Assembly (NCBI GenBank): GCA_001798185.1
Contig: MGRM01000009.1
Location: forward strand, 85,745-149,744
Source: Deltaproteobacteria bacterium RIFCSPHIGHO2_02_FULL_44_16
Lineage (GTDB): Bacteria > UBA10199 > 2-02-FULL-44-16
Length of the DNA stretch: 64,000 bases
Reading direction: 5' to 3'
Positions within the stretch are counted from its first letter, which is position 1; each line of letters begins with the position of its first letter. Made by a program: the position numbers and the translations under genes. This document shows, in pieces, positions 7,911 through 58,861 of the stretch. The notes beneath the pieces were generated by a model. That model was not told where the DNA came from. It saw nothing but the letters and a program-made list of their open reading frames with translations, and did not search any database.

Positions 7911-8546
7911 ATGAATCAACTTCTCGCAAAAATTAAAGAGAAGATTCCTTCTGAATGCTTCACGGACACCGAACTTGCCACCATTCTGGAGGGATCTAAG
8001 CATCGCCGCTATGGCCTCGTGAAGCGAGCCATCGCTCACGGCGATCTCATTTCGCTGCGCCGTGGACTCTATTGTCTCGGCTCCCTGCATCAACAATCTT
8101 CCCTTGATTCCCTCGCATTAAGCCAACGTCTGTATGGTCCTTCCTACATCAGTTTTGAACTTGCTCTCTCCCACCATGGATGGATTCCTGAAGGGGTGCA
8201 CGTTGTCACCGCTGCTTGTCTTAAACGCTCGCAACAATTTAAAACACCCCTTGGAACTTTTTCCTACCGACATGTAAGCTCAAAACCTTTTTTCGCAGGA
8301 GTCCGCACGATTCCCCTTGAAAAGGGAACGATCTTTATGGCCACTCCCTGGAAAGCACTCGCTGATTATATTTTTTTCTTTCACAAGAAATGGAAAGGGC
8401 TCACACCCCTTCTTCATTCACTCCGAATCGACGAAGATATTTTTCAACAGATGAACATGGAAGAATTCACTGAAGCAGAACAAGCTTATAAAAATCATCG
8501 CGTCATATCATTTTTTGCACATCTTCGAAAGGATCTCTTGCTATGA
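7911..8546 (+). CDS. abiEi: AbiEi-family antitoxin / transcriptional regulator (type IV TA / abortive infection)
   Basis: N-terminal AbiEi_4-like wHTH with '…HGDLISLRRGLYCLGS…'. ATGA overlap with the downstream AbiEii gene. Confidence 0.65.
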   Translation: MNQLLAKIKEKIPSECFTDTELATILEGSKHRRYGLVKRAIAHGDLISLRRGLYCLGSLHQQSSLDSLALSQRLYGPSYISFELALSHHGWIPEGVHVVTAACLKRSQQFKTPLGTFSYRHVSSKPFFAGVRTIPLEKGTIFMATPWKALADYIFFFHKKWKGLTPLLHSLRIDEDIFQQMNMEEFTEAEQAYKNHRVISFFAHLRKDLLL

Positions 8547-9424
8547 GCACAAAAATTCTTCAGGATCGACTTGATACCTACAATGCTCAAACTTCGTGGG
8601 AAGAAGAGATCGCGCTGAAAGAAATTCTTCAAGAGATTATTCTTGCAGCTCTTGGGAGAACCGATTTTTTTAAATATGCTGCGTTCCAGGGAGGAACAGC
8701 TCTTCGCATTCTTTATAGTCTTGAACGCTTTTCCGAAGATCTTGATTTTATTTTGCAGCAGGAAGAGAAAAGTTTTGCAATCACATCTTATCTTCAAGCA
8801 ATCCAACTTGAATGCACCTCGTATGGTATGTCACTTGAATTTCAGGATCGATCAAAAGCAGATCAAGCTGTTAAAAAAGCTTTTCTCAAAGACAATTCTC
8901 TCGGTAAAATTTTGCACATCAAACATCCCAGCATCTCTTCGCCTTCAACCCCTAAAAAACTACGCATTAAACTAGAGATCGATACGAATCCACCTGCAGG
9001 GAGTCATACAGAAATCAAATATCTGAACTTTCCCTTTGCTTCAGCTGTAACGATGCAGAATCTTCCAAGTCTTTTTGCAGGAAAAAGTCACGCGCTGCTC
9101 TGTCGCGAATATGTGAAGGGAAGAGATTGGTACGATTTTCTCTGGTACGTCGTCCGAAAAACATCTCTCAATTTTGAATTCCTGACACAGGCTTGTCGAC
9201 AACAGGGACCATGGAAACATCAAACGATGGTGATCACCCAAGAATGGTATTTGCATGAAATGAAAAAAAAGATTGAGTCCATCAATTGGCAAGAAGCGCA
9301 ACAAGATGTGATGCCATTTCTCCGTGCACATCATCTGAAGTCTCTTGAACTCTGGAGCACTGATTTTTTTCTGGATGCACTTCAAAAACTTGAACAGATC
9401 TTATCTGAAAAATCCGTAAGCTAA
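8543..9424 (+). CDS. abiEii: AbiEii/AbiGii-family nucleotidyltransferase toxin (DUF1814)
   Basis: Signature 'AAFQGGTALRILYSLERFSEDLDFI' (GGTAL…RFSEDLDF) of AbiEii nucleotidyltransferases. Confidence 0.75.
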   Translation: MSTKILQDRLDTYNAQTSWEEEIALKEILQEIILAALGRTDFFKYAAFQGGTALRILYSLERFSEDLDFILQQEEKSFAITSYLQAIQLECTSYGMSLEFQDRSKADQAVKKAFLKDNSLGKILHIKHPSISSPSTPKKLRIKLEIDTNPPAGSHTEIKYLNFPFASAVTMQNLPSLFAGKSHALLCREYVKGRDWYDFLWYVVRKTSLNFEFLTQACRQQGPWKHQTMVITQEWYLHEMKKKIESINWQEAQQDVMPFLRAHHLKSLELWSTDFFLDALQKLEQILSEKSVS

Positions 9425-17537: not shown

Positions 17538-17945
17538 TTATTTCTCTAAAAATAAAGAAATTGTTTTGTAGAGTTTTTCGGCTGTCGCGAAAGCTTGTGC
17601 AGCATCGGTTTTATTGGGGAGACGATGAGGAAAACTTCCCGGAATCCCGTCGGGATATCGAGTTGGAGCGTAGTAAAGATTGAGCACCATCAGCGGTTCC
17701 TCAAAAACTTGGAGTATTTCTTCATTCACAGGAAGACATATTCGAAACAGTTCATTGAGATCATGTATTTTTTTAAACGAAATAGCGTGAAAATGAAGAA
17801 AGGCTTTCAATAATTTTTCAGCACATTGTTGAGCATGAAAACAGGCTTGTGAATAAATTCCTTCTTTGGAAAGAACATGCGCTGCTTGCAAATCCTCTCC
17901 TGCAAAGACTAGCCATTCAAGCGCCAGATCACGCTGCTTTGTCAT
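17538..17945 (-). CDS. HEPN domain protein (toxin partner of the HEPN/MNT module)
   Basis: HEPN-like helical protein (PF05168-type, '…AHVLSKEGIYSQACFHAQQCAEKLLKA…'). Overlaps the upstream MNT gene by 17 nt. Confidence 0.55.
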   Translation of the reverse strand: MTKQRDLALEWLVFAGEDLQAAHVLSKEGIYSQACFHAQQCAEKLLKAFLHFHAISFKKIHDLNELFRICLPVNEEILQVFEEPLMVLNLYYAPTRYPDGIPGSFPHRLPNKTDAAQAFATAEKLYKTISLFLEK

Positions 17946-18444
17946 AGAGCACTTTTCCTTTTCCCTTTATCTCTTCCGTAAAAAAAGGCCGTTCACTTTT
18001 CTCAGCATCAGCCCATTCCTTTGGCGTATAGACAAAAAAATCACACGCAAGCTTCGGACGAATGAGCTTCACCACTTCTTTTTGTCGATCCCAAAATCGT
18101 TTCTTCGTCTGCTTGATGATGACTAAATCGATGTCACTGCTTTCGTGAACTTTTCCCGCGGCAAGCGAGCCAAAAAGAATAATTTTTTCTGGCTGATATT
18201 CAGCAGCAAGTTTCGTGACCATACGCAAAAGCTCCCCCGTCAACTCACGCTCACGGATTGAAACCGTATCAAGCGCACGTTGAGTGAGCTTCTCAAACAC
18301 GTCGCAGCCAACAAGAACTAAGGTGGGTTTCCCATGTTGCGTTAAGATCACCGGTTCTTTTGCTTCCAGCACGCGCTCAATGAGCTTTCCCGGTTCCCGC
18401 TGCATTTCCGTAGCGGTGGCTAAATGTTCTGATTTGAGTTGCAT
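17929..18444 (-). CDS. Minimal nucleotidyltransferase (MNT) with an N-terminal Phd/YefM-like antitoxin domain
   Basis: 'ILFGSLAAGKVHESSDIDLVII' (GS…SDIDL) MNT motif. The N-terminal ~60 aa ('…PVILTQHGKPTLVLVGCDVFEKL') resembles Phd/YefM. Confidence 0.55.
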   Translation of the reverse strand: MQLKSEHLATATEMQREPGKLIERVLEAKEPVILTQHGKPTLVLVGCDVFEKLTQRALDTVSIRERELTGELLRMVTKLAAEYQPEKIILFGSLAAGKVHESSDIDLVIIKQTKKRFWDRQKEVVKLIRPKLACDFFVYTPKEWADAEKSERPFFTEEIKGKGKVLYDKAA

Positions 18445-24254: not shown

Positions 24255-24357
24255 GCCTAAACACCCTTCTTTTCGAACAATTTGCCTGCTAAAATAATAG
24301 TGGTAATAATAGATGTAATATGTGACATTTTTACTGAAGTCTGTGGAGGAAAGGCTC

Positions 24358-25269
24358 ATGACAAAATGGTATACATTAGCTCTGATCAATCCCTACTATC
24401 AAGATAACCATAATCTTTTCCAATCAGACATTTCTTTTGATGATGTGCTTATAACAAAAAAACCAACGTGGATCGATCGTGAGGATATCAAAAACAAGTT
24501 TGGTTTAAACCAAAGACGTATCATTGAAAACGCGGAGCTTTGTTTTATGACAGAATATAAAGCAAAATCTCTTGGAGAGCCCGATCCTTTGTGGAAAGGA
24601 AAAAAGCAGCGATCAAAACAAGATTTGCATGTTGAAAAGATCATGTTCTGTAACCAGGCACTGTGGCTATCTCAACCGACCTCTTTGAACTTTCAGGTTC
24701 TTCTCCACATTGAAAAAAGAAATGGAAAACATACCGGAAGAGAATTCTCAACTTTTCCAGCTGCTCTTCCTCATAGCGAAGATAGTGAAAGTCTGATTCA
24801 TCAAAAAAATATTCAGGAAGCTCAAACTCTTTTCAGTAAGATTTGCTCTTTACACCGTAAGGGTTCCACATGGATTGCTTTGCATAATCTTTGGTCCGCA
24901 CTTTCAGCTCCTCAAGGTCAATGGCTCATGAGATATTTGTTGCTGTGGATCGCTCTTGAAGCACTTTTTGGATCTGATATCGAGATTACACATCGACTTT
25001 CCGAAAGAATTTCCTTTTTCATTGCCGATGATCGTTTTCAAGCGAAGGATTTGTATGAAAGATCTAAGTATTGTTATCGCTGGCGCTCTAAAATTGTTCA
25101 CGGTAACGGAATGGATAAGCTTACACCAAATGATTCAGAGAAAATCATGTATGACTCTGAAGATTTGGTCAGAACTGCTTTGAAGAAAATTCTTTTGAAT
25201 GATGACCTGATAAATACGTTTAGCGGAAATGGACGAGAAAAATGTCTCGACGAACTGATTTTTGCTTAA
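24358..25269 (+). CDS. Hypothetical protein with a HEPN-like R-x4-H-G motif (candidate Abi/RNase effector); AT-rich gene
   Basis: 'YRWRSKIVHGNG' matches the Rx4-6H HEPN consensus in a predicted helical C-terminal region. GGAGGA RBS 8 nt upstream of ATG 24358. Confidence 0.3.
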   Translation: MTKWYTLALINPYYQDNHNLFQSDISFDDVLITKKPTWIDREDIKNKFGLNQRRIIENAELCFMTEYKAKSLGEPDPLWKGKKQRSKQDLHVEKIMFCNQALWLSQPTSLNFQVLLHIEKRNGKHTGREFSTFPAALPHSEDSESLIHQKNIQEAQTLFSKICSLHRKGSTWIALHNLWSALSAPQGQWLMRYLLLWIALEALFGSDIEITHRLSERISFFIADDRFQAKDLYERSKYCYRWRSKIVHGNGMDKLTPNDSEKIMYDSEDLVRTALKKILLNDDLINTFSGNGREKCLDELIFA

Positions 25270-25280
25270 AAATATTAACT

Positions 25281-26318
25281 ATGAAAACTCTCCAACAATT
25301 CGAAAATGAACTCAGAGAAGTACCGGCATCTGCCGCATGGTATATTGGCGACCTTGGAGAAGCACGCGGTAAGCAAGAACTCTTCACACGGCAATCTCAA
25401 CAGAGACTCAAGGTCCTACGTCAGCATGCGTTGATTGAAAGTGCGGTCTCGTCCAATCGGATCGAAGGAGTAACGGTTGATCAAGATCGTGTAAAAGCCG
25501 TGATTCTAGGCCGCTCAGCTCTGCACGATAGAGATGAAGAGGAGATACGGGGATATCGCAATGCACTTAAGTGGATTCACGAAAAGAAGCCAATGATTAC
25601 GGAAAAAACGATCAAAGAACTTCATCATCTCGCTCGGGGAAAAATTGGAGACGCTGGGCAATACAAAACAAAGGACAGTGATATTATCGAACGCCACACA
25701 GATGGTACATATACTGTTCGCTTCAAAACCGCTTCTGCAAAAGAGACATCCAAAAATATGAAGGAGCTTGTTTCGTTGTGGCAAGATCATCTCAAAAATA
25801 AAGCTATTCATCCACTTGTCATTTTGGCGGGATTTAATCTCGATTTTCTTTGCGTACATCCCTTGCGCGATGGCAATGGTCGTGTGTCGCGATTGCTGCT
25901 TCTGCTTCAGCTTTATCATCTGGGTTATGAAGTTGGACGGTACATTAGTCTTGAACGACTGATCGAAGAAAACAAAGAACGTTACTACGAAACCTTGAAG
26001 CTCAGCTCACAGGGTTGGCATGAGGGAAAGCATGATCCGTGGCACTACATCAACTTTTTACTATTCATTCTCAAAGAAGCCTACAAGGAATTTGAAAAAA
26101 GAGCCGGACAAATCAAAGAACCTAAAGGAGCCAAAACAGAATTGATTGAAGCGGCAATTCGATCACTGGGAAATGGATTCACGGTTTCGGATCTAGAAAA
26201 ATCCTGCCCTACTGTCAGTCGTGACATGATTCGCCGTGTGCTCCACAATTTGAAGAAAGCAAAAAAGGTTGAATGCCTTGCACGGGGCCCAGGGGCCACC
26301 TGGAAGCAAAAAGGGTAA
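25281..26318 (+). CDS. Fic-family protein (class II, auto-inhibited AMPylase type) with a C-terminal wHTH-like region
   Basis: Fic motif 'HPLRDGNGRVSRLL' (HPFx[DE]GNGR) and N-terminal inhibitory 'SSNRIEG' ([ST]xxxE[GN]). Confidence 0.8.
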   Translation: MKTLQQFENELREVPASAAWYIGDLGEARGKQELFTRQSQQRLKVLRQHALIESAVSSNRIEGVTVDQDRVKAVILGRSALHDRDEEEIRGYRNALKWIHEKKPMITEKTIKELHHLARGKIGDAGQYKTKDSDIIERHTDGTYTVRFKTASAKETSKNMKELVSLWQDHLKNKAIHPLVILAGFNLDFLCVHPLRDGNGRVSRLLLLLQLYHLGYEVGRYISLERLIEENKERYYETLKLSSQGWHEGKHDPWHYINFLLFILKEAYKEFEKRAGQIKEPKGAKTELIEAAIRSLGNGFTVSDLEKSCPTVSRDMIRRVLHNLKKAKKVECLARGPGATWKQKG

Positions 26319-26411
26319 TACACATTAATAAGTGTAATAATAAGTGTAATGTATATAGGAATTTGTAGCGTTTTGTTTACGTTGTCTAAACCTCTCACTA
26401 CAGAATCATGA

Positions 26412-26440
26412 TTGAATTTTCGCCTGTAAAATTCTAGTAT
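26412..26440 (+). promoter_or_regulatory. Candidate sigma70-type promoter for the MTase operon (TTGAAT-17-TAGTAT)
   Basis: ttgaattttcgcctgtaaaattctagtat in an AT-rich spacer carrying 'ataagtgtaat' direct repeats, ~40 bp upstream of the MTase ATG. Confidence 0.3.
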
Positions 26441-26479
26441 TATGGCTCTCAAAATTTTGATTCGTGTAGACCTAAATCT

Positions 26480-28465
26480 ATGACTAAAGAAATTGAAAAA
26501 AACCAAACTTTGCCAACGCAAGAAAAGTTTTTTTCTACCGAGAAACTACGTCGGTCAGCGCGAGCGGGGACAAATCTACCTGACCCCACGATGGCACCCT
26601 ATGGGTATGATGCCAAACAGCACTACGGCCATCTCTTTCCCAAGTTGGAATTGCCGCGATTGTTTCCGCCGGCGTCGCATCATCCCGATGACCACGTTAG
26701 CTTTGGCTCGCCAAGTATGGAACCCCATCAGCTTTATCTGGGGGACAACCTCTATGTTCTGCGCCAGTTGCCCACTGAATCAATCGACCTGATTTACATC
26801 GACCCGCCCTTCTTTTCCAATCGGACCTACACCCAAATCTGGGGTGACGACAATGAAGTGCGTTCTTTCACCGATATTTTTCAGGATGGGATGTTTTCTT
26901 ATCTCGCTTGGCTGAATGCCCGATTGTGGGAAATGAAGCGGGTACTCAAGTCTACCGGTTCCATTTACGTTCATTGCGATTGGCATGCAGCTCATTACAT
27001 CAAGTGTGAACTCGATAAAATTTTCGGCTATGACAATCTTCGGAACGAGATTATCTGGTGTTACCAAAATGGCGGCAAAGGAAAGGAAAATTTTGCCCGC
27101 AAGCATGATATAATTTTTTGGTACTCAAAAACGCAACAATGGATTTTTAACGAAGCCGACGTTCATATACCCTATGAATTAATTTCGCCTAATTCTGTAA
27201 CGCCATTTAATCTGAAAGACGGACAAGGTAGACGCTATCGGGAGAGAATCTCAAATGGGAAGAAGTATGTCTACTATGAAGATAATGGGAAAATTCCCAA
27301 CGATTGGTGGTTAGATGTACAGCCGTTGACTGGGCGTCATGGGTGGGATGAGAGATTAGGGTATCCTACACAAAAACCGGAATCTTTACTTGAAAGAATC
27401 GTTAAGGCGTCTTCAACTTCCAACGGTATAGTCGCTGATTTTTTCATGGGTGGTGGCACAGCGGGATCTGTCGCTCTGAAATTGGATCGCCGTTTTATCG
27501 GCTGTGACATTTCTCGCGTTGCTGTCAGCGTTACCGCTAGCCGTTTAATTGATATCGCTGAAAATATTTCAGGCATAACAGTAACAAACAAAGCCCAGCC
27601 GACTCTACCAATGAAACAGGCAGACGTTGCCGATATTCGCGTGGGCTATGTGGGGAGCTACCCTCAAGATAAATTTCGCGGTATCTCCCATGAGGAATTT
27701 TCAAAATTCATCCGCACTGTATACCAGGCCATGCCCTTTACGGGTCAGGCTCAATGGATTCATGGCTTGGCCAACAACAAAATTATCCTTTCCATTGGCC
27801 CGGGCGACCCCAATGAACGGGTGACGCTTACACAAGTGGATGGCGCCGTCAAAGACACGGTCAAACAGTATTCTCGACAATTCGCCGAGGGAGAAGACAA
27901 AATTCTTCAGATTATCGGGTGGTCTTTTGATCCTCAGTGTGAAGGTTGGAAGCGCAAGGCGGCAGAAACCCTCAACAGCAAGGGAGTCAAGTTACAAATC
28001 GATCTGATTTCTTTGGGGAGCGAGAGTTTCCGTCAGAAAATTTTCCGCAACGTTGGTGAAAGCAATCTTGATCTCAAATTCAATCGTCTTAATCAACTCC
28101 TCTCATTCACCGGCGCGCCCTATGCCGGAAAAATCACTGTCACCAGTAGGAACAAGTTGACCGTCTCTTTTGCTTTGGAAGGGGCAAGGGCTATCGGTGC
28201 GGGCGCCAAGCTGATCAACTGTCAGTGGGATTTTTCCTATGACAACAACCGCTTTGCCAGTCGGGAACATGCTTTGAACCGGGACGGAAAGAATGGAGAT
28301 TTTATCGCTATCCTGACAACGGATCACACGTTTCCAAAGTCAGGAACGTACAGCATTGCGGCGAGGGTACAGGACAATCTCGACGGACAAGCCACAGTTG
28401 CCGCCCGAATCGAAGTGAGTGAAACCGATTGCAGGATTATTGAAGAGAAGATCGTGAATGTATGA
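26480..28465 (+). CDS. DNA methyltransferase (N6-adenine/N4-cytosine, beta-class, type III Mod-like / PF01555) with a ~300 aa C-terminal extension of unknown function
   Basis: Motif IV 'IYIDPPFFSN' precedes motif I 'DFFMGGGTAGSV' by ~220 aa (beta class), with 'SIYVHCDW…NEIIWCY' in between. 661 aa total. Confidence 0.8.
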   Translation: MTKEIEKNQTLPTQEKFFSTEKLRRSARAGTNLPDPTMAPYGYDAKQHYGHLFPKLELPRLFPPASHHPDDHVSFGSPSMEPHQLYLGDNLYVLRQLPTESIDLIYIDPPFFSNRTYTQIWGDDNEVRSFTDIFQDGMFSYLAWLNARLWEMKRVLKSTGSIYVHCDWHAAHYIKCELDKIFGYDNLRNEIIWCYQNGGKGKENFARKHDIIFWYSKTQQWIFNEADVHIPYELISPNSVTPFNLKDGQGRRYRERISNGKKYVYYEDNGKIPNDWWLDVQPLTGRHGWDERLGYPTQKPESLLERIVKASSTSNGIVADFFMGGGTAGSVALKLDRRFIGCDISRVAVSVTASRLIDIAENISGITVTNKAQPTLPMKQADVADIRVGYVGSYPQDKFRGISHEEFSKFIRTVYQAMPFTGQAQWIHGLANNKIILSIGPGDPNERVTLTQVDGAVKDTVKQYSRQFAEGEDKILQIIGWSFDPQCEGWKRKAAETLNSKGVKLQIDLISLGSESFRQKIFRNVGESNLDLKFNRLNQLLSFTGAPYAGKITVTSRNKLTVSFALEGARAIGAGAKLINCQWDFSYDNNRFASREHALNRDGKNGDFIAILTTDHTFPKSGTYSIAARVQDNLDGQATVAARIEVSETDCRIIEEKIVNV

Positions 28466-29556
28466 TGGTATCAAAAGGAAACAAAATGGAAGGACTCAAA
28501 CCTCAAGATTGGAAGGATTTACTAAGCGGGGTACGCAATCTTATTATTTCAGCCAGGCGAGCCGCCTCGCGAAGCATTGACACTCTTCAGGTGTTCACCA
28601 GCTTTGAGATCGGACGCCGTGTTGTCGAACATGAACAACTCGGAGAAAAGCGAGCCACTTATGGAAAACACGTGCTTACAAGACTTTCAGAGAGCCTAAC
28701 TCGTGAGTTCGGGCGCGGATTTTCAGAGGACAATCTCTCAAATATGCGGCGTTTTTATCTTGAATATCGGAAATGCTTGCCGAAGATTTCCGAGAAGCCT
28801 TCTCGGAAATCCATTTCCGCGCCAGGCCAGTCAATCTTATCGAATGTCAGCTCTGTTTTGAGCTGGTCCCATTACGTTTTTCTGATGACAATTTCAGACA
28901 AGGATGAACGACAATTCTATGAAATCGAATCTGCCCAAAACGGCTGGTCTCTGCCGGAACTCAAACGCCAGTTCAATTCCAGCCTTTATGAACGTCTGGC
29001 CTTAAGCCGGAACAAGAAAAAAGTCCTGGAGTTGGCCAAAAAGGGCCAATTGATAGAAACTTCCTCCGACCTGATCAAGCAACCCCTTGTGCTGGAATTT
29101 CTCGGCTTGGATGAAAAAAACAAATATGCGGAGTCGGATCTGGAATCCGCCATTATCGATAAACTGGAACATTTTCTGCTTGAGTTGGGCAAAGGCTTTC
29201 TTTTCGAAGCCCGGCAAAAACGTTTCACCTTTGACACCGATCACTTCTACGTTGACCTTGTATTTTATAATCGCCTTCTACGCTGCTACGTGCTCATCGA
29301 TCTCAAGATCGGCAAACTCACCCACCAAGATTTGGGACAGATGCAGATGTACGTCAATTATTTCGACCGCTTTGTAAAAAGGGATGGCGAACATCCCACC
29401 ATCGGCATCATTCTTTGCCGAACAAAAGGTAGTGCCTTGGTTGAAATCACGCTTCCTGAAAAAGCCAACATCTATGCGTCAGAATATAAACTCTACCTCC
29501 CATCGAAAAAAGATCTGAAAAGAAAACTTTTGGCATGGGCCGCAGAGGAAGAATAA
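28462..29556 (+). CDS. DUF1016 / YhcG-family PD-(D/E)xK nuclease-like protein (alternative start at 28486)
   Basis: YhcG-like N-terminal region plus a C-terminal '…FYVDLVFYNRLLRCYVLIDLKIGKL…' (D…[I]DLK) PD-(D/E)xK core. ATGA overlap with the MTase. Confidence 0.6.
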   Translation: MMVSKGNKMEGLKPQDWKDLLSGVRNLIISARRAASRSIDTLQVFTSFEIGRRVVEHEQLGEKRATYGKHVLTRLSESLTREFGRGFSEDNLSNMRRFYLEYRKCLPKISEKPSRKSISAPGQSILSNVSSVLSWSHYVFLMTISDKDERQFYEIESAQNGWSLPELKRQFNSSLYERLALSRNKKKVLELAKKGQLIETSSDLIKQPLVLEFLGLDEKNKYAESDLESAIIDKLEHFLLELGKGFLFEARQKRFTFDTDHFYVDLVFYNRLLRCYVLIDLKIGKLTHQDLGQMQMYVNYFDRFVKRDGEHPTIGIILCRTKGSALVEITLPEKANIYASEYKLYLPSKKDLKRKLLAWAAEEE

Positions 29557-29559
29557 TTC

Positions 29560-31695
29560 ATGATTACCGAAGAAGAATTACAATGGCGACTCTGGACGGA
29601 GACGCCCCAGTTCCCAAATCTGAATGACCATCAAAGACTGGTGGCTCAAAGGTTTTTCGAGCGCCTTAGCGGACAGGATTTCTTCAAACCACTTTATCGT
29701 CATCAATGGGAGGCGATTGCACGTGTTATTCATAATGGTGAAGTACGAGGAAAGTGGGAATGCCTTCTCGATATTGTAACCGGAGGCGGTAAGACCGTCA
29801 TCATGGCTGGTTTGATGTCGTACTTTTGGCAGGTTCGTAAGTGCGAAAAATTCCTGATTCTTGTTCCCAACACCATTGTTCGTGAACGGGTCAAAGACGA
29901 CTTTGAGTTTAATAATCCAGCTAATGCATTCAAAGAATTCCCTTTTTTCTTCAACTCTTGCTCCAGGGTACCTGAACGCCTTGTGTGTAAAGTCCTGCGG
30001 GATGGAAGCGACGCCTCCGGCATCCGTGACGCCCATGTGATTGTCGCAAACATCCATCAACTTTACGAAGGCAAGGGTTCTCCTGCCCTTGAAGTGCTCC
30101 TTGCAGACAAGGTTACACCCGAACTCGTGATTTTTAATGATGAGGCGCATAACGCAGCGGCGGGAGAATATCGGGAAGTGTTAAAACTTTTGCGTCGAAA
30201 AACCGTTGCCCGGATTGACCTGACTGCAACCCCTTACCGCCTCGACAAGCAGGACCTCGATACCTATCCGCCGCTGTATGAATACCATGTGCAGGAAGCC
30301 ATGCGCGATGGAGTGGTAAAACAGATCGTAGTGACCAGACCAGACATCCAGAGCGTCAAACTGCAATATGAAGAGTGGGACGAAAACAATCAGGTGATTC
30401 GCACGCTTGATGCCGAAGAAATGCCCTGGGAGCAGATCGAAAGTGAACTCAGGCGAAGCGGTGCCGTTCGTTTCGTCACGGCAGATAACGCCCGCAGACA
30501 ACAGCTTCAAATTGCAAAAAGCTGTTTGGATTATCAGAAAAAATGTGTCCCTCGCGGAGTGGATGATAAGCCACAATGGGAACCGTTGATGCTGACAGTT
30601 GCACTCTCCCAAAAAGATGCTTTTAAAATTTATGAAACCCTTCAGAAAAAACCATTTGGCTATAAACCAGAAGAATTATTGCTTGTTCACAGCAAACAAG
30701 AAGAACTGCAGAACAGGAAAGCATTTTTGCTTGGACGTAAAGGTCCAGAGGGTTTGAATAAAGAAGATGAAGAGTTATGGCATGAGACACGAAAAGTACG
30801 GGTCATCATTGCTGTTTCTATGTTGCGTGAAGGTTGGGATGTTAGAAATATTGCCATTATTTGCCTTTTTCGCAAATTCAGTTTTCAGAAAAAGGGGGAT
30901 CGGACTTATACAGTTTATGGCCCACAGATCATTGGTCGAGGCCTAAGACGAATCCGCCAGCCCAACGAACGGGATTTTCTGTTTGTCATCGATCATCCGG
31001 CTTTCAATCATGATTGGCTTTGGGAGATTCTTTCAGCTCACAAGTACGCCAAGCCACTGAATCCAGGCGACGCCGTGGAAGATTCTTGTATTGAAGACAT
31101 CCCTCTGGAAAAGCCGAAAATAGAGGAATCGGAGGAGGCCAATAAGGAAGACAAGAAACCGGAATTGGATGTTGAAGATATACTCAATAGTCTCCCTTCC
31201 ATTGATGGCAAGGGTGTTCATCCCATCGCCAATTGGCAAAAACATTTTCGAGAGTTTCCCCTAGCAAAAAAAATATCATCGGCCCTCCAAAGAATTACCA
31301 ATATAAAAAGTCAAAAGCTGGGGGGCGATACAACTGCGCATGTCTTGCCTGAAGAAGAGATTAATATTGAGGAACTCAATGAAAGTGTGGCCGGTCAATA
31401 CAAAGATAAAAAACGGGAAGACTTGATTCGGGAACTCCAAACAGACCTGCTCAACGAGCCTCATCATGCACTGATGCTTTGTTTCAAGATGGAGACCGCC
31501 GAGGAAACGCTTAAGTTGATGCAAGCGCTGGAATGGATTTTGACCGAACTTTTTGCCATTCAGGGGGTTAGTGGTTTGGGCGAATCTCCGGAGGCCCAAT
31601 TGCGTAAACTGCATTTTTCCTTACCCCAGATTTTGGATGAGTTTCGGAAGCCGGAAATCGTCTTGGGCATTCTTGGTGAGGGGTCTGAAAAATGA
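29560..31695 (+). CDS. SF2 DEAH-box helicase, type III restriction Res-subunit-like, lacking a recognisable C-terminal endonuclease domain
   Basis: Motif I 'DIVTGGGKTVIMAG', motif II 'VIFNDEAHNAAA', 'LTATPYR', motif VI 'QIIGRGLRR'. 711 aa. Begins 4 nt after the DUF1016 stop. Confidence 0.7.
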   Translation: MITEEELQWRLWTETPQFPNLNDHQRLVAQRFFERLSGQDFFKPLYRHQWEAIARVIHNGEVRGKWECLLDIVTGGGKTVIMAGLMSYFWQVRKCEKFLILVPNTIVRERVKDDFEFNNPANAFKEFPFFFNSCSRVPERLVCKVLRDGSDASGIRDAHVIVANIHQLYEGKGSPALEVLLADKVTPELVIFNDEAHNAAAGEYREVLKLLRRKTVARIDLTATPYRLDKQDLDTYPPLYEYHVQEAMRDGVVKQIVVTRPDIQSVKLQYEEWDENNQVIRTLDAEEMPWEQIESELRRSGAVRFVTADNARRQQLQIAKSCLDYQKKCVPRGVDDKPQWEPLMLTVALSQKDAFKIYETLQKKPFGYKPEELLLVHSKQEELQNRKAFLLGRKGPEGLNKEDEELWHETRKVRVIIAVSMLREGWDVRNIAIICLFRKFSFQKKGDRTYTVYGPQIIGRGLRRIRQPNERDFLFVIDHPAFNHDWLWEILSAHKYAKPLNPGDAVEDSCIEDIPLEKPKIEESEEANKEDKKPELDVEDILNSLPSIDGKGVHPIANWQKHFREFPLAKKISSALQRITNIKSQKLGGDTTAHVLPEEEINIEELNESVAGQYKDKKREDLIRELQTDLLNEPHHALMLCFKMETAEETLKLMQALEWILTELFAIQGVSGLGESPEAQLRKLHFSLPQILDEFRKPEIVLGILGEGSEK

Positions 31696-32138
31696 TTCAG
31701 TCGAAGAGAGGTATTCTTAAAGGACTCAAGAAAACTCCAAAAGGTGAATCTACTTATGACAGTCTTTTGGAGCGAGATTACATGTTTGAATTGGAAAATA
31801 TGGGTGGCGTGGTTTCATGGACCAAGGACCACGGGATCCGAATTCCCTACAAAATCTTCGGGATCATTTCACGCCACTACTTGCCGGACTTCCTTGTCAC
31901 CTATGCGGACGGGTCAAAGGAGATTCATGAAACCAAAGGTGCTGGCTTTCTCGCCTGGGTTTCCACGCACGCCAAACGGCATGCCGGTGATGCCTGGTGC
32001 CGCCAGCGCGGGATGGTTTACCGGTTTATTGAAAACTCCAAAGGGGCGCTGTTTGCGAAGAATAATAGCTTGTCTCAACTTGAGGGAAGTTCCTCCTTCA
32101 AGCAGAAAAAACAAGTCGGGTCATTTGAAGATTTGTGA
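31692..32138 (+). CDS. Small PD-(D/E)xK-type nuclease-like protein (148 aa), translationally coupled to the helicase
   Basis: 'YLPDFLVTYADGSKEIHETKG' is a D…ExK core. ATGA overlap with the helicase stop. Confidence 0.4.
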   Translation: MIQSKRGILKGLKKTPKGESTYDSLLERDYMFELENMGGVVSWTKDHGIRIPYKIFGIISRHYLPDFLVTYADGSKEIHETKGAGFLAWVSTHAKRHAGDAWCRQRGMVYRFIENSKGALFAKNNSLSQLEGSSSFKQKKQVGSFEDL

Positions 32139-32276
32139 ATGTGACTAGAAATGCGGGCATGGAAATTATTTGAACAATTATTTTACTCCACCTAACGCGT
32201 CTTTCGGGGGGAGTCGTAATAGAAACCGCGCTCCGCCCCAACTCTTTATATTCACCTTCTTTACACCATTGTTAAA

Positions 32277-32711
32277 TTGTTTAAAATTATTATTGCAATA
32301 TCTGTAAGAATGGCTTACTCGTCACAAATGGCCACCAAAGGTGAAAAGAAAAGTGAGTTTCTGAGACACAAGAAAGAGATCGAAGAGACTTACAACCGTA
32401 AACTTGAAGCCCTGTATGAGCTTTATCCTGAGTTCAAAAATACCACATCTTCAATCAATGGCGGCAGTGTTAGCACAAGCTCTTATGGCAGCCTTAAAAA
32501 GGTTTTACATCAAGCCATAGATAGGCGCGAGGGTGAGTTTACTTCGCGTGATCTAAAAAAATGGATCTCCGAGATTGATGCATCTGTGGGGGCGGCGATG
32601 ACACCTGCATCAGTTTCAAATGCGTTGGCGCGACTGAAGAAGGAGCAAAAAATAGAGCAAATTAAAAAGGGAGCAGGATCATCACCATCGATTTTTAAAA
32701 AGAAAAATTAA
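32277..32711 (+). CDS. Hypothetical protein (start uncertain)
   Basis: 144 aa ORF upstream of the HNH gene. Lys/Glu-rich; no recognisable motif. Confidence 0.3.
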   Translation: MFKIIIAISVRMAYSSQMATKGEKKSEFLRHKKEIEETYNRKLEALYELYPEFKNTTSSINGGSVSTSSYGSLKKVLHQAIDRREGEFTSRDLKKWISEIDASVGAAMTPASVSNALARLKKEQKIEQIKKGAGSSPSIFKKKN

Positions 32712-32862
32712 AGGCCAACCGCGCTAACGATTGGCCCTTAAATAGGGGACAGGAAAACCCGTCCACTTGTTCAATGCAAGTACACTTGTAGCGGTTCCCC
32801 TCCATTAAATCAAGAGCCCTTTCGTTTTCCTGTGGGTTCAATTTAAATAGGGAGGTTCTGAA

Positions 32863-33123
32863 ATGAACTTAACTCAAGAACAGCTTAAACAAATTTGGTT
32901 TAAAGCTAAAAACGCAGGTGCAGAAAACGACCGGAATGGCTTTCGTAAAGACAAATACGGAGCTTGGATAAAATGGTCTGACTACGGCAACAGAAACAGT
33001 CAATATGGATGGGAAGTTGACCACATTATTGCCACCGCAAATGGTGGGTCTGACACTATGAGCAATCTTTGCCCACTGCATTGGAAAAACAACGCATCCA
33101 AAAGCGGCAGCAGATTCTTATAG
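32863..33123 (+). CDS. Small HNH endonuclease
   Basis: 'YGWEVDHIIATANGGSDTMSNLCPLHWKNNASK' H-N-H core. GGGAGG RBS 6 nt upstream. Confidence 0.65.
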   Translation: MNLTQEQLKQIWFKAKNAGAENDRNGFRKDKYGAWIKWSDYGNRNSQYGWEVDHIIATANGGSDTMSNLCPLHWKNNASKSGSRFL

Positions 33124-33237
33124 CTTGAATGTTAATGGCCTTCAGAATAAAACGACGGTAGCTTGCAATGCCGTCGTTTTTATTTTGCAAGCAAACTGCT
33201 TGGGCGCCAGATATCAAGGATATTCCCTAGAGTGAGC

Positions 33238-33336
33238 ATGATGAAACACTACATCACCGCCACTGACCTCTATAATTTCAAAAAATGCGCTTATTGGCCG
33301 TACATGGATGGCAATACGTTGATAAAAGCACTTTAA
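33238..33336 (+). pseudogene. Orphan duplicated 5' fragment of the TM0106-type nuclease gene (encodes MMKHYITATDLYNFKKCAYWPYMDGNTLIKAL*)
   Basis: Its first ~23 codons are ~85% identical at the DNA level to 34580-34650, the N-terminus of the downstream nuclease ORF. It terminates after 32 codons. Confidence 0.4.
33244..33315 (+). repeat. Direct repeat DR-L (~70 bp) flanking the DUF4143 ATPase gene
   Basis: aaacactacatcaccgccactgacctctataatttcaaaaaatgcgcttattggccgtacatggatggcaat, matching 34580-34652. Confidence 0.55.
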
Positions 33337-33426
33337 AATCAATTGGTTATAAATAAATAAGCTCTGCGAAATATATGATGTTTTCAGCAACACCATTGCG
33401 TATTTTTTAACTTCTGTTAGGCTCTC

Positions 33427-34581
33427 ATGATGGTGGATTACACACGTATTCTTGACCTTCAAACTCCTCTCAAACGGAAAAGCCTTTTTCTTTTTGGGCC
33501 TCGCCAGACGGGGAAAACCTTTTATCTCAAGAAAACTTTTCCCAATATCCCTTTTTATAATTTGCTTGAGTCGAAAACATTTCTTCGGCTGAGTCAGCGC
33601 CCTCATTTACTCCGAGAAGAATTGATGGCAACTGCATCCGCGAATCCGCTGATTATTATAGATGAAATACAAAAACTTCCTCTTTTGCTTGATGAAGTTC
33701 ATTCATTGATTGAGGAAAAGAAAATGAAGTTTATTTTAACGGGGAGCAGCGCGCGGAAGTTAAAAAGAGGTGGAGCCAATCTTTTGGGAGGTCGGGCAAC
33801 AACGCTTCACCTCTATCCATTAGTTTCCGCTGAAATTCCCAATTTTGATTTGATCCGAGCTTTAAATTGGGGAACACTTCCTTCTCTTTACCCCTCTGAC
33901 GACCCGGAAAACGATCTTCATGATTATGTCGGAAATTATCTCAAAGAAGAAATCCAGGCGGAGGGGTTGGCGCGAAACATCGGAAATTTCTCTCGTTTTC
34001 TCCAAACAGCATCACTCTGCAACGCGGAACAAACTCATTTTACAAATATTGGAAACGATGCCCAAATATCGCCTCGCACTGTAGCGGAATATTTCTCCAT
34101 CTTGGAAGACACACTCATCGGATACATTTTAGAGCCCTATACAAAGACGAAAAAACGAAAGGCAGTTTCTACCGCGAAATTCTATTTTTTTGATTGCGGC
34201 GTTTGCAACGTTTTGGCCGGACGAAGAAACATCAGTCCAAAAACAGAACTGTTCGGAAAGTCGTTTGAGCAATTTATTTTTACAGAATTGAAAGCCTATC
34301 TTTCCTATAAGCGGGATTCCCGGCCGCTTACTTTTTGGAAATCCCAAATATCAGATTACGAAGTTGATTTTTTGATCGGAGATGAAATTGCCATTGAAGT
34401 AAAAGGTTCTGAATTGATTACAGAACGCCATTTAACGGGTATTAAGGCTCTTAAAGAAGAGTTGAAATTGAAAAAGAACATTATTGTTTCCATGGATGAA
34501 AAACCTCGAAAATTGGACGGCATTGATATTTTCCCCGTTTCTCATTTCCTTGAAATGTTATGGAGCGGAGAAATTGTCTAA
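33427..34581 (+). CDS. AAA+ ATPase, AAA_14 / DUF4143 family
   Basis: Walker A 'LFGPRQTGKTFYL', Walker B 'LIIIDEIQK', and a DUF4143-like C-terminal region. Confidence 0.7.
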   Translation: MMVDYTRILDLQTPLKRKSLFLFGPRQTGKTFYLKKTFPNIPFYNLLESKTFLRLSQRPHLLREELMATASANPLIIIDEIQKLPLLLDEVHSLIEEKKMKFILTGSSARKLKRGGANLLGGRATTLHLYPLVSAEIPNFDLIRALNWGTLPSLYPSDDPENDLHDYVGNYLKEEIQAEGLARNIGNFSRFLQTASLCNAEQTHFTNIGNDAQISPRTVAEYFSILEDTLIGYILEPYTKTKKRKAVSTAKFYFFDCGVCNVLAGRRNISPKTELFGKSFEQFIFTELKAYLSYKRDSRPLTFWKSQISDYEVDFLIGDEIAIEVKGSELITERHLTGIKALKEELKLKKNIIVSMDEKPRKLDGIDIFPVSHFLEMLWSGEIV

Positions 34582-36088
34582 ACACTACATCACCGCCACT
34601 GATCTCTATAATTTCAAGAAGTGCGCCTATCGACCATTTATGGATTTCAATGGGGATCTATCGTTGAAAGTCGACGTGCATCCGCTCGTGAAACTGCTGT
34701 GGGAATCGGGAGTGCAATATGAAGCAAAGGTCATTGAATCGTATCAGCGAGATCATTCCGAAAAATCGTTTCGTGCAATCGATCCTGAGAAGCCGGCATC
34801 CGAAGCTTTGGCCAAGGAAACGCTCAAAGCAATGCAAGATGGGATTGATATCATTTATCAAGGTGTTTTGATTTCAGGAAATAAACTCGGTCGTCCTGAT
34901 CTGCTTCTGAAAACACCGGGATCTTCGTCGCTCGGCGCGCATCATTATTATCCGATGGATATTAAACTCACTCGCATTGATGCGACATGGGATGATGGCA
35001 ATGAAAAGGTTCCCATAGAACAATTCTGGCAAATCTATTTTTATGGTGAACTTTTAGAGCACGTTCAAGGCAAGCGACCAGAGAAAGGTTATATCTATAA
35101 GACCAAGTCGCGCATTCTTCCGATTCCTCTTTATAAAGCTCCCAAGAATTACGAATGGTCAGTGAATCAATTAGAAAATTATCTTCAGGGAAATGCGTTC
35201 GGAGCAGAGCCAACGATCAACAGCAATTGCGGCTTATGCGACTGGAAAGATTCATGTCGAAGTTGGGCCGATGAAAAACAGGATATTTCACTCGTCTATT
35301 ATGTTGGTCAGGCAATGAAACTCGGACTCAATCAACTCGGCATTCGTTCGATCGAAGATCTTGCGGCGCAAGATCCAGACTATTTGACGAGAAAAGTTAT
35401 AGAACTGAAAAACCAAGGATTCTTTTGGAATGCAATGCCCGCCGATCTCCCTGCAAAATCTGTTGTGCGCGCGAAGATTCACCTGAGCAAAAAACCGGTC
35501 ATCCATAACCCCATCACTTTTCCTGATGCTGAAAAAGAGATTCATTACGATATCGAAGATGACCCAACACAGGATTTTGTCTATTTGCACGGCGCCTTGC
35601 TTATCGAGAAAGGGAAAGAGCCAAAGTATTACGCCTTCTTTGCAGAACATCGCGATGAGGAACGCACCATCACCGAACACCTGTTTGATTTTTTCAATCA
35701 GCACCCGGATGCGACTGTGTATCACTACAGTGATTACGAAAAGACAACGCTTAAGCGACTCATCAGTAAGCATCAACTCGATTCGACATCGTATGAACGA
35801 TTGTTCGGTAAAAATGGAACAGCAATCGATCTTTATAAAATTGTCACCGAGAATACTGACTGGCCGCTGACAAGCTATGGCGTCAAGGCGATCTGCAAGT
35901 TTTTGGGATTTCAGTGGGATGCCAGTGATGCTGGTGGCGCCGCATCGATTGTCTGGATGAATGAATATTTAAGCGGACATACAAGCATGAAAGAGAAAAT
36001 ACTCCGATATAATGAAGACGATTGTCGGGCGACCTCTTTTCTCAAAAACGAACTCATCAAAATGCAAAATCACACGAACGATGTGTAG
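34484..36088 (+). CDS. RecB-family nuclease, TM0106-like (Cas4/RecB-like N-terminal domain with Cys cluster, RNase-H-like C-terminal domain). Start ambiguous.
   Basis: Conserved N-terminal 'HYITATDLYNFKKCAYRPFMD'; Cys cluster 'CGLCDWKDSC'; C-terminal 'HYDIEDDP…VYLHG' RNase H-like. No ATG immediately precedes the conserved N-terminus, so the only in-frame ATG (34484) overlaps the ATPase gene. Confidence 0.5.
   Translation: MFPWMKNLENWTALIFSPFLISLKCYGAEKLSKHYITATDLYNFKKCAYRPFMDFNGDLSLKVDVHPLVKLLWESGVQYEAKVIESYQRDHSEKSFRAIDPEKPASEALAKETLKAMQDGIDIIYQGVLISGNKLGRPDLLLKTPGSSSLGAHHYYPMDIKLTRIDATWDDGNEKVPIEQFWQIYFYGELLEHVQGKRPEKGYIYKTKSRILPIPLYKAPKNYEWSVNQLENYLQGNAFGAEPTINSNCGLCDWKDSCRSWADEKQDISLVYYVGQAMKLGLNQLGIRSIEDLAAQDPDYLTRKVIELKNQGFFWNAMPADLPAKSVVRAKIHLSKKPVIHNPITFPDAEKEIHYDIEDDPTQDFVYLHGALLIEKGKEPKYYAFFAEHRDEERTITEHLFDFFNQHPDATVYHYSDYEKTTLKRLISKHQLDSTSYERLFGKNGTAIDLYKIVTENTDWPLTSYGVKAICKFLGFQWDASDAGGAASIVWMNEYLSGHTSMKEKILRYNEDDCRATSFLKNELIKMQNHTNDV
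34580..34652 (+). repeat. Direct repeat DR-R (~70 bp), coinciding with the conserved N-terminal coding region of the nuclease gene
   Basis: aaacactacatcaccgccactgatctctataatttcaagaagtgcgcctatcgaccatttatggatttcaatgggg. Confidence 0.55.
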
Positions 36089-36251: not shown

Positions 36252-36704
36252 ATGCCCTGTAACGATGTGACAGACTCTTTAAAACTGACCCTTGATGAAC
36301 ACGACCACATTTTGAGCTATGAACTTTCAAAACGGACGTGTGGCGCCGAAGTTGGGGAGCTGTCGCTCATTTCTGATTGGATTAAAGAAAAAAAGATCAG
36401 CGAAATCCTTAGCACACCAGCAGAACACTTTTTGGAAGAATATCTTCCCCCAAAAGATGACATTGAAGAGTTTCTCTTCTTAAAACATTTCTTCTCGATT
36501 CAAAATGGTTTGCGATCTCTCTTAGGAGATGTCTCTGCAACGAACCAAGATGTCTGCACGGTGGACGGTGTCGAACAAGATGGAAATCTCACCCACCTTA
36601 TGGCTTCGCTCAAAGTCGATTTGATCACGAAGGAAATCAAGTCCTGCGCCGGTTGCGCTTGCACGAAAAAACGAGATGAGCGAAGAGCCAAAAGAGGTTT
36701 TTAG
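36252..36704 (+). CDS. Hypothetical protein (Cys-containing C-terminus CAGCAC)
   Basis: 150 aa ORF upstream of the DtxR-family gene. A 19-codon uORF with a strong SD overlaps its start. Confidence 0.3.
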   Translation: MPCNDVTDSLKLTLDEHDHILSYELSKRTCGAEVGELSLISDWIKEKKISEILSTPAEHFLEEYLPPKDDIEEFLFLKHFFSIQNGLRSLLGDVSATNQDVCTVDGVEQDGNLTHLMASLKVDLITKEIKSCAGCACTKKRDERRAKRGF

Positions 36705-58785: not shown

Positions 58786-58861
58786 AAGTTCAAAAAACAT
58801 ATATTTTTCAATTAGTTACAATCTTGATATCGCAAACTGCGATACCAAGTTGGGAGGAACA

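What the first reader, a model, noticed from the sequence alone, without database searches (positions are those of the whole stretch)
24322..36088. Mosaic defense/accessory island inserted between lpdA and the DtxR-feoAB iron locus
The backbone around this region is core metabolism (sucAB-lpdA upstream, iron uptake downstream). Between them lie ~12 kb of genes typical of anti-phage islands. These are a HEPN-like Rx4HG protein, a class II Fic, an MTase/nuclease/helicase operon, a small HNH nuclease, a DUF4143 AAA ATPase and a TM0106 RecB/Cas4-like nuclease. Base composition shifts block by block: the first gene is very AT-rich and the MTase cassette is more GC-rich. No integrase, transposase or tRNA is present, so the acquisition mechanism is not obvious.
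Basis: partly seen in the sequence, partly recalled or inferred. Interest (0 to 1): 0.7.

Follow-up and report, generated by a model that had tools for sequence, protein, structure and literature searches.

The report
Mosaic anti-phage defence gene island
An ordinary patchwork cluster of anti-phage and toxin-type genes sits between core metabolic and iron-uptake genes of an uncultured groundwater bacterium; its pieces came from different sources, and one gene cassette left a visible recombination scar.

Summary
The gene inventory holds up. It comprises a rare HEPN-like protein, a class II SoFic-like Fic, and a methyltransferase / DUF1016 / helicase / small-nuclease operon. It also has a small HNH protein, a DUF4143 ATPase and a TM0106 RecB-like nuclease. 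No tRNA, integrase or transposase occurs anywhere in the 64 kb. Overall GC is normal, but the first gene is the AT-richest of 46 genes. The methyltransferase cassette has raised GC3, and the island's dinucleotide signature exceeds every same-size background segment. Each module has a different closest relative, in a different context. The "helicase plus separate nuclease" layout is native to its family, and DUF1016 is an extra gene nested in that operon. The DUF4143 cassette is bracketed by an 85%-identical duplication of the 5' end of the TM0106 gene. It recurs at 91.5% identity in an unrelated locus of another contig. Insertion "between lpdA and DtxR-feoAB" cannot be shown, because no close relative is available (next lpdA homologue 68%). 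Verdict: a real but ordinary, non-autonomous defence island, probably built piecemeal by recombination.

The parts
24358..25269 (+). 303-aa protein (the ORF can start at GTG 24322). N-terminal beta/alpha domain plus a C-terminal helical, HEPN-like domain with WIALEALFG and RSKIVHG (Rx4HG).
25281..26318 (+). Class II Fic (SoFic-like AMP-transferase). Inhibitory SNRIEG at aa 58-63, core HPLRDGNGRVSR at aa 193-204.
   Evidence: PF02661 2e-13. PADLOC SoFic 6e-33. PDB 8uqu_A 1.7e-86. 87% identical to the Fic of L015. Motifs.
26480..28465 (+). Beta-class N6A/N4C DNA methyltransferase, 661 aa (DPPF at aa 108, FMGGG at aa 322).
   Evidence: PF01555 1e-43. PADLOC MTase_II and MTase_III. PDB CcrM, MboIIA, RsrI and EcoP15I Mod. 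64% identical to the L049 Mod.
28462..29556 (+). DUF1016/YhcG PD-(D/E)xK protein nested between the methyltransferase and helicase genes.
   Evidence: PF17761 + PF06250. PADLOC PDC-S02 5e-138. Absent from the otherwise collinear L049 operon.
29560..31695 (+). SF2 helicase-type restriction subunit without a nuclease domain (GGGKT, DEAH, TATP, QIIGRGLR).
   Evidence: PF04851 9e-22. Full-length homologues are 655-714 aa. 67% identical to the L049 helicase. Motifs.
31692..32138 (+). 148-aa TnsA-N-like PD-(D/E)xK nuclease. Its start overlaps the helicase stop (ATGA).
   Evidence: PF08722 1e-7. Matches the C-terminal nuclease part (858-940 of 970) of NCBIfam restr_BPTD_3080. Same gene follows the helicase in L049, 68% identity. 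PD...ETK motif.
32277..32711 (+). 133/144-aa protein of unknown function, followed by a hairpin at 32708-32741.
   Evidence: Only sub-threshold hits. Hairpin.
32863..33123 (+). 86-aa HNH nuclease, with a terminator-like hairpin at 33149-33180.
   Evidence: PF01844 25.2 bits against a cut-off of 21.4. PHROG HNH / endonuclease VII families. Terminator.
33238..33330 (+). 5' fragment of a TM0106-type gene: ATGATG + KHYITATDLYNFKKCAYWPYMDGN, then a stop. Left copy of the 72-nt direct repeat (33244-33315).
33365..34581 (+). DUF4143 (COG1373) AAA ATPase cassette (gene 33427-34581). The C-terminus carries EVD...EVK, a PD-(D/E)xK-like motif.
   Evidence: PF13173 + PF13635. PADLOC PDC-S01. 91.5% nt identity to L026 over exactly this span. 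Classified as a PD-(D/E)xK family in PMC3424549.
34574..36088 (+). TM0106-family RecB/Cas4-like nuclease with a C-terminal RNase H-like domain. TTG start 5 nt before the DUF4143 stop. Right repeat copy at 34580-34651. Cys17, 219, 222, 228; D...DIK.
   Evidence: TIGR03491 1e-88. PF13482. The 504-aa product is on record from this start. Sequence. Motifs.

Best explanation
This is a chromosomal, non-autonomous defence island. It is a run of independent innate-immunity and toxin modules that accumulated at one locus by separate horizontal acquisitions and recombination, not as one integrase-borne element.

The modules and their inferred actions are:
1. A stand-alone HEPN-like protein, a probable RNase-type abortive-infection toxin with an N-terminal sensor domain.
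2. A class II Fic, SoFic-like. Its AMPylation activity would be held off by its own N-terminal inhibitory helix.
3. A restriction-modification-like operon. A beta-class methyltransferase marks self DNA. An SF2 ATPase and a separately encoded small PD-(D/E)xK nuclease cut unmarked DNA. A DUF1016 nuclease-fold gene is nested inside the operon.
4. Two orphan genes with their own terminators: an unknown 133-aa protein and an 86-aa HNH.
5. A DUF4143 ATPase cassette that recombined into the first ~30 codons of a resident TM0106 Cas4-like nuclease gene. TM0106 now lacks its ATG and probably depends on translational coupling (TTG start, GGAG upstream).

What is shown: domain content, motif integrity, the composition shift, the different nearest relatives, and the repeat scar. 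What is inferred: anti-phage activity of every module, the order of acquisition, and the recombination route.
For: Defence-model hits come: SoFic 6e-33, MTase_II/III, PDC-S02 5e-138, PDC-S01 4e-45, weak REase_III.

Catalytic motifs are intact in all enzymes.

Composition. Island delta* is 64 against 23.6 +/- 4.8 (0 of 116 background segments reach it). The RM cassette is 82.8 against 39 +/- 15 (0 of 165). Fic and TM0106 fall inside the background. RM-cassette GC3 is 0.46-0.54 against 0.39. Its closest relative, L049, lies in 54-56% GC DNA.

Different nearest relatives:
- Fic: 87% in L015.
- TM0106: 74-76% in L015, L016 and L018.
- Mod, helicase, nuclease: 64-68% in L049.
- DUF4143: 93% in L026.
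- p303: at most 43%.
- lpdA: at most 68%.

Related TM0106 loci show the same kind of neighbourhood with different cassettes: Fic, HNH, DUF1016, type I RM.

L049 has Mod-helicase-nuclease without DUF1016. Helicase homologues are natively about 700 aa.

A 72-nt, 85%-identical direct repeat of the TM0106 5' end brackets the DUF4143 cassette. The same cassette recurs in L026, with homology ending exactly at the stop codon.

No tRNA, integrase or transposase is present.

DUF1016 nested in RM operons is already documented (PMC9881135 and PMC3424549).
Against: No empty site was found. Every contig of this population carries the island, and no relative closer than 68% lpdA identity exists. Insertion at this locus is therefore inferred from composition only, against a background of just 52 kb.

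None of the modules has been tested for defence. PDC-S01 and PDC-S02 are only candidates. TM0106 has no known function and no solved relative.

The helicase has no sequence match to a solved Type III Res. Calling the operon restriction-modification therefore rests on architecture.

Confidence: 0.7

Rival explanations
1. The region is the decayed remnant of a single integrative element (prophage, ICE or IME) that has lost its recombinase and ends.
For: In L015 the 87%-identical Fic and a 74%-identical TM0106 lie 2.5 kb from a large serine recombinase, with a Bro-N protein between them.
Against: The 64-kb window has no recombinase, phage structural gene or conjugation gene. No direct repeats sit at the outer borders. 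Composition differs block by block rather than as one unit. Close relatives of Fic and TM0106 were not found in viral contigs.
Confidence: 0.12
2. The cluster is largely ancestral to this lineage and was not inserted. The locus downstream of sucAB-lpdA is simply poorly conserved. Only the RM cassette and the DUF4143 cassette are later additions to a resident Fic...TM0106 pair.
For: Fic and TM0106 have native-like signatures. Fic and TM0106 co-occur in three related contigs of 42-45% GC. The island is fixed in all samples. The nearest lpdA relative (L013) also has a DUF4143-type ATPase two genes after lpdA, though only 24% identical.
Against: Fic (87%) and TM0106 (74%) diverge unequally from their L015 counterparts. 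L015, L016 and L018 share nothing else with the window. Those contigs are not next to sucAB-lpdA.
Confidence: 0.15
3. Several members (TM0106, DUF4143, HNH, DUF1016) serve DNA repair or recombination housekeeping rather than phage defence, so 'defence island' overstates the case.
For: TM0106 is widespread across phyla, with 630 homologues at E<=1e-20. It has no defence-model hit beyond weak Cas4 similarity. The function of DUF4143 is unknown (PMC3424549).
Against: The closest TM0106 homologues all sit among Fic, RM, HNH and DUF1016 genes. PDC-S01 and PDC-S02 were defined by enrichment near defence genes (PADLOC models).
Confidence: 0.1

Closest known systems
Defence islands (clusters of immunity and toxin genes in prokaryotic chromosomes)
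   Same: Dense, same-strand run of RM, Abi-type toxin (Fic, HEPN) and nuclease/ATPase genes. Mosaic composition. Variable content between relatives.
   Different: No associated mobile-element gene or tRNA. Embedded between housekeeping operons. The hotspot cannot be confirmed for lack of close relatives.
SoFic single-gene anti-phage system (class II Fic AMP-transferase)
   Same: Fic core motif, N-terminal inhibitory (S/T)xxxE(G/N) motif, about 350 aa with a C-terminal domain. PADLOC SoFic 6e-33.
   Different: Far below the NCBIfam SoFic equivalog cut-off (45 against 550 bits). The core has Leu in place of the canonical Phe. No small downstream antitoxin-like ORF comparable to AS1 (PMC12249575) was seen in 26319-26479. 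The closest solved relative is 8uqu_A, not SoFic.
Type III restriction-modification (EcoP15I-like Mod/Res)
   Same: Beta-class adenine/cytosine MTase followed by an SF2 'ResIII' ATPase and a PD-(D/E)xK nuclease, in that order, tightly coupled.
   Different: The nuclease is a separate 148-aa polypeptide, and this is native to the family. The helicase has no detectable similarity to a solved Type III Res. The MTase is closer to Type II beta enzymes. A DUF1016 gene is nested in the operon.
DUF1016/YhcG genes nested in RM operons
   Same: A PD-(D/E)xK-fold gene placed between the core genes of an RM system, as reported for Type I and Type IIG loci (PMC9881135, PMC3424549).
   Different: Here the host operon is the three-gene Mod-helicase-nuclease type.
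HEPN abortive-infection / toxin proteins (AbiA C-terminal domain, MNT-HEPN toxins, Csm6)
   Different: No HEPN Pfam model matches. The N-terminal beta/alpha domain is unassigned. No partner antitoxin gene. The family has only 14 detectable members.

Membership tests
Genomic island acquired horizontally | Composition differs from the host background | tested here: met
   delta* 64 against 23.6 +/- 4.8. Tetranucleotide distance 0.163 against 0.089 +/- 0.010. 0 of 116 background segments reach it. The effect is driven by the RM cassette, the p144+HNH block and the DUF4143 block. Overall GC is not different.
Genomic island acquired horizontally | Absent from the same locus in close relatives | tested here: inconclusive
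   Only the same population (99.8-100%) and relatives at 68% lpdA identity or less are available. In the latter, the genes downstream of lpdA are unrelated to each other.
Genomic island acquired horizontally | Flanking tRNA, integrase or transposase, and terminal direct repeats | tested here: not met
   No tRNA. No recombinase domains in the window. No border repeats.
Defence island | Several adjacent genes matching known or candidate defence families | tested here: met
   PADLOC SoFic, MTase_II/III, PDC-S02, PDC-S01 and weak REase_III.
Class II Fic | HxFx(D/E)GNGRxxR core plus an inhibitory (S/T)xxxE(G/N) motif N-terminal to it in the same chain | tested here: met
   HPLRDGNGRVSR (F replaced by L) at aa 193-204. 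SNRIEG at aa 58-63.
SoFic equivalog (NCBIfam NF046030) | Score above the curated cut-off | tested here: not met
   45.4 bits against a cut-off of 550.
Type III restriction-modification | Res subunit with helicase motifs and a fused C-terminal PD-(D/E)xK nuclease | tested here: not met
   The helicase (711 aa) and nuclease (148 aa) are separate genes. Close homologues are 655-714 aa, and L049 keeps the same split.
Type III restriction-modification | Beta-class Mod methyltransferase adjacent to res | tested here: met
   DPPF precedes FxGxG. PF01555. Weak EcoP15I Mod match, 2e-11.
HEPN superfamily | Conserved Rx4-6H motif | tested here: met
   R243 and H248-G249 are invariant in 14 sequences.
HEPN superfamily | HEPN helical fold | tested here: inconclusive
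TM0106 RecB-like nuclease (TIGR03491) | Score above the curated cut-off; Cas4-type Cys cluster and D...DxK motif | tested here: met
   298 bits against 97. C17, C219, C222, C228 and D109...D129-I-K131.
DUF4143 / COG1373 ATPase | AAA_14 + DUF4143 domains above the Pfam cut-offs | tested here: met
   80.5 bits against 27, and 97.9 bits against 28.1.
DUF1016 / YhcG | DUF1016_N + YhcG_C above the Pfam cut-offs | tested here: met
   129.9 and 178.7 bits.

The most novel reading that the evidence does not exclude
The 1.2-1.3-kb DUF4143 (COG1373) gene may be a self-contained mobile cassette. It would target the 5' end of Cas4/RecB-like TM0106 nuclease genes. Entry would be either by carrying a TM0106-derived homology arm (Campbell-type single crossover) or by action of its own ATPase / PD-(D/E)xK-like protein. 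On insertion it would re-supply a start codon, so that the host nuclease becomes translationally dependent on it. That would give a mobility mechanism for a very abundant gene family that is enriched in defence islands and has no known function.
Probability: 0.12. Interest if true: 0.55.

Novelty: new member of a known kind. Interest (0 to 1): 0.3.

Why it matters
The locus adds little conceptually, because defence islands of this make-up are common. Three things are useful.
1. It documents a conserved three-gene methyltransferase / helicase / stand-alone-nuclease system, which standard Type III models would miss.
2. It defines a very rare HEPN-like family: 14 members in 5.8 billion proteins, with a confident model.
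3. It gives a concrete example of how a defence island can grow without an integrase. A single-gene cassette recombined into the 5' end of a resident gene and left a diverged duplication.

Tried and rejected
Approaches that gave no usable result:
- An empty site was sought with one genome-contig scan on lpdA, a protein search on lpdA and context look-ups of the nearest homologues. Only distant relatives without shared synteny were found.
- The apparent size match of two downstream ORFs in L001 (148 and 176 aa) to the 150-aa gene and DtxR proved to be chance.
- An exact FeoB look-up failed because the start differs.
- A cassette-free TM0106 allele (a protein starting MMKHY...) was sought in the 90% cluster. 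None exists there.
- Foldseek of the HEPN-like model against the PDB gave nothing. The afdb50 library was unavailable.
- Viral-contig scans for TM0106 and Fic were negative.
- Rfam found no RNA family in the window.

Hypotheses rejected:
- Frameshift pseudogene for the helicase/nuclease split. Homologues are natively about 700 aa, and L049 has the same two genes.
- DUF4143-TM0106 as a conserved pair. No TM0106 lies next to the 22 other DUF4143 loci.
- Flanking duplications as a general property of DUF4143 genes. They were not seen in 15 other loci.
- p303-Fic as a two-gene system. p303 homologues occur without Fic, and the 87% Fic of L015 occurs without p303.
Full report
OBSERVATION

The interval 24322-36088 holds ten + strand genes with short or overlapping junctions.

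- Fic: PF02661; PADLOC SoFic 6e-33.
- N6_N4 methyltransferase: 1e-43.
- DUF1016_N / YhcG_C PD-(D/E)xK protein: PADLOC PDC-S02 5e-138.
- ResIII helicase.
- TnsA-N-like nuclease, 148 aa.
- HNH protein, 86 aa, just above the Pfam cut-off.
- AAA_14 + DUF4143 ATPase: PADLOC PDC-S01.
- TM0106-family RecB-like nuclease: TIGR03491, 298 bits against a cut-off of 97.

Upstream are sucA, sucB and lpdA. Downstream are an unknown 150-aa gene, a DtxR/MntR regulator, FeoA and FeoB.

The window has no tRNA and no Rfam family. The Pfam labels of the called genes on the matching 90-kb contig show only housekeeping genes and three further small toxin-type loci. No integrase or transposase is among them.

THE FIRST GENE

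The first gene has no Pfam, NCBIfam or PADLOC match. Its family is tiny, with 14 homologues among 5.8 billion proteins and none carrying a Pfam domain.

WIALEALFG and R-x4-H-G are invariant in the family. An AlphaFold model built from that alignment is confident (pLDDT 92, pTM 0.90). It shows an N-terminal beta/alpha domain and a C-terminal helical domain.

Homologues sit in other defence-like contexts, next to HATPase_c_3, DUF4145 and AAA_15/21 genes. They are not linked to Fic.

FIC

The protein has the core motif HPLRDGNGRVSR and an N-terminal SNRIEG inhibitory motif, so it is class II. It scores far below the SoFic equivalog cut-off. Its closest solved relative is 8uqu_A, at 1.7e-86. SoFic-type proteins are reported as abortive-infection AMPylators (PMC12249575).

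THE METHYLTRANSFERASE OPERON

The methyltransferase is beta-class, with DPPF before FxGxG. It is nearest to CcrM, MboIIA and RsrI, with a weaker EcoP15I Mod match. The helicase has all the SF2 motifs but no nuclease domain. The next ORF overlaps its stop by ATGA and carries PD...ExK.

Both ORFs match different parts of the 970-aa NCBIfam restr_BPTD_3080 model, which raised the possibility of a frameshift. An exhaustive HMMER search argues against that, because close full-length homologues are 655-714 aa. The best homologue (67%) lies in L049, in a collinear Mod (64%) - helicase - 148-aa nuclease (68%) operon.

The split is therefore native to this family. L049 lacks DUF1016, so DUF1016 is an extra gene nested precisely between mod and the helicase gene. 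Nesting of DUF1016 in RM operons is already documented (PMC9881135, PMC3424549).

The helicase has no sequence match to a solved Type III Res. The operon is Type III-like in architecture only.

COMPOSITION

Overall GC is 0.438 for the island against 0.443 for the rest. The first gene, at 0.376, is the lowest of 46 genes (background 0.443 +/- 0.020). GC3 of Mod, DUF1016 and the nuclease is 0.50-0.54, above every background gene (0.393 +/- 0.043, maximum 0.481).

Karlin's delta*, measured against the rest of the window:
- Whole island: 64 against 23.6 +/- 4.8 (0 of 116 same-size background segments reach it).
- RM cassette: 82.8 against 39 +/- 15 (0 of 165).
- p144+HNH block and DUF4143 block: near the 5% tail.
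- Fic and TM0106: indistinguishable from background.

The closest relative of the RM cassette lies in 54-56% GC DNA. Relatives of Fic and TM0106 lie in 42-45% GC DNA, like the window. The background is only 52 kb, so these statistics are indicative.

COMPARATIVE CONTEXT

Contigs encoding an identical lpdA are 99.8-100% identical to the window. All of them carry the island as far as they extend. They include Rifle-aquifer "Deltaproteobacteria bacterium" MAGs.

The next lpdA homologues are 64-68% identical. Downstream of their sucAB-lpdA operons are unrelated genes. The nearest (L013) has an unknown gene and a DUF4143-type ATPase that is only 24% identical.

The proposed test, adjacency of lpdA and DtxR-feoAB in close relatives, cannot be done with the available data.

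The closest TM0106 homologues (71-76%) all sit in similar mosaics:
- L015: HNH - Fic (87% identical to the window's) - 217 aa - TM0106 - Bro-N - DUF6933 - large serine recombinase.
- L016: Fic fragment - TM0106 - DUF1016.
- L018: hsdR - Fic - hsdM - hsdS - DUF3644 - 244 aa - TM0106 - DUF6933.

A Fic...TM0106 neighbourhood with changing cassettes is thus recurrent. Identity to the nearest relative differs by module (43%, 87%, 64-68%, 93%, 75%), and each nearest relative is on a different contig.

A RECOMBINATION SCAR

A 72-nt direct repeat at 85% identity (33244-33315 and 34580-34651) brackets the DUF4143 gene.

The left copy starts with ATGATG. It encodes MMKHYITATDLYNFKKCAYWPYMDGN, then decays into a stop. 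Homologues start the same way, for example MKKYITATDLY....

The right copy is codons 3-26 of the intact TM0106 gene. Here the ATGATG is replaced by the last bases of the DUF4143 gene. A TTG at 34574 with GGAG upstream gives the 504-aa product that gene callers record.

Of the 11 nucleotide differences, 5 are synonymous. The left copy carries changes at conserved residues (R to W, F/Y to G) and an indel. The duplicated segment includes Cys17, the first Cys of the Cas4-type cluster.

The cassette (33365-34581) recurs at 91.5% nt identity in L026. L026 comes from another Rifle MAG lineage and lies next to a LysM protein gene and ftsZ. The homology ends exactly at the stop codon. L026 also has a decayed TM0106-like 5' fragment (…CHCWPFMDYDGN) just upstream of the cassette.

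No TM0106 lies next to the 22 other DUF4143 loci, and flanking duplications are not general for this family.

The simplest reading is that a cassette carrying a TM0106-derived arm entered by a single crossover within the first 23 identical bases. This is inference. Alternative routes are replacement by an incoming DUF4143-TM0106 block, or a site-specific mechanism. I cannot tell whether L026's organism is a close relative of the window's.

VERDICT

The interpretation as a mosaic defence island is supported. Insertion between lpdA and DtxR-feoAB is plausible for the RM, orphan and DUF4143 blocks but unproven for the island as a whole.

The island is ordinary in kind. The minor points of novelty are the native three-gene Mod / helicase / stand-alone-nuclease family, the rare HEPN-like family, and the integrase-free cassette insertion scar.

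Noticed in passing
window 33238-33330 and 34574-34651; L026 3404-4713: The DUF4143 cassette is bracketed by an 85%-identical duplication of the first ~26 codons of the TM0106 gene. The same cassette (91.5% nt) sits in an unrelated locus of another Rifle MAG contig. That copy is also preceded by a decayed TM0106-like 5' fragment, and the homology ends exactly at the stop codon.
   Followed up: partly
window 7911-9424: An AbiEi-like (211 aa) / AbiEii (PF08843, 293 aa) toxin-antitoxin pair lies among housekeeping genes, 15 kb upstream of the island.
   Followed up: no
window 17538-18444 (- strand): An MNT (NTP_transf_2 / PhdYeFM) plus HEPN (PF05168) toxin-antitoxin pair lies immediately upstream of sucA.
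   Followed up: no
window 58850-59395: An ORF6N (KilA-N-like, PF10543) gene stands alone between IF-2B-family and uvrC genes. It is the only phage-flavoured domain outside the island.
   Followed up: no
window 36252-36704: A 150-aa protein between the island and DtxR has no Pfam, NCBIfam, PADLOC or PHROG match. Its C-terminus carries CAGCAC. It is unclear whether it belongs to the island or to the iron locus.
   Followed up: partly
window 27620-28465 and 31240-31695: The C-terminal ~280 aa of the methyltransferase and ~150 aa of the helicase have no domain assignment. They are conserved in the L049 homologues.
   Followed up: no
L027 1355-5266: A 34-nt palindromic repeat (AAAGGGGACACTTTATTGTGTCCCCTTT) occurs four times and flanks two tandem DUF4143 paralogues. 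It looks REP- or terminator-like.
   Followed up: no
L018 1218-7847: A Fic gene (48% identical to the window's) is nested between hsdR and hsdM of a Type I RM operon, upstream of a TM0106 homologue.
   Followed up: no
L016 5596-8556: An SMC-like ATPase gene carries an intein with a LAGLIDADG domain, 2.3 kb downstream of the TM0106-DUF1016 pair.
   Followed up: no
L013 6319-8359: In the nearest lpdA relative (68%), the two genes after lpdA are an unknown 212-aa protein and a DUF4143-type ATPase only 24% identical to the window's. This hints that the position after sucAB-lpdA is variable in this clade.
   Followed up: partly
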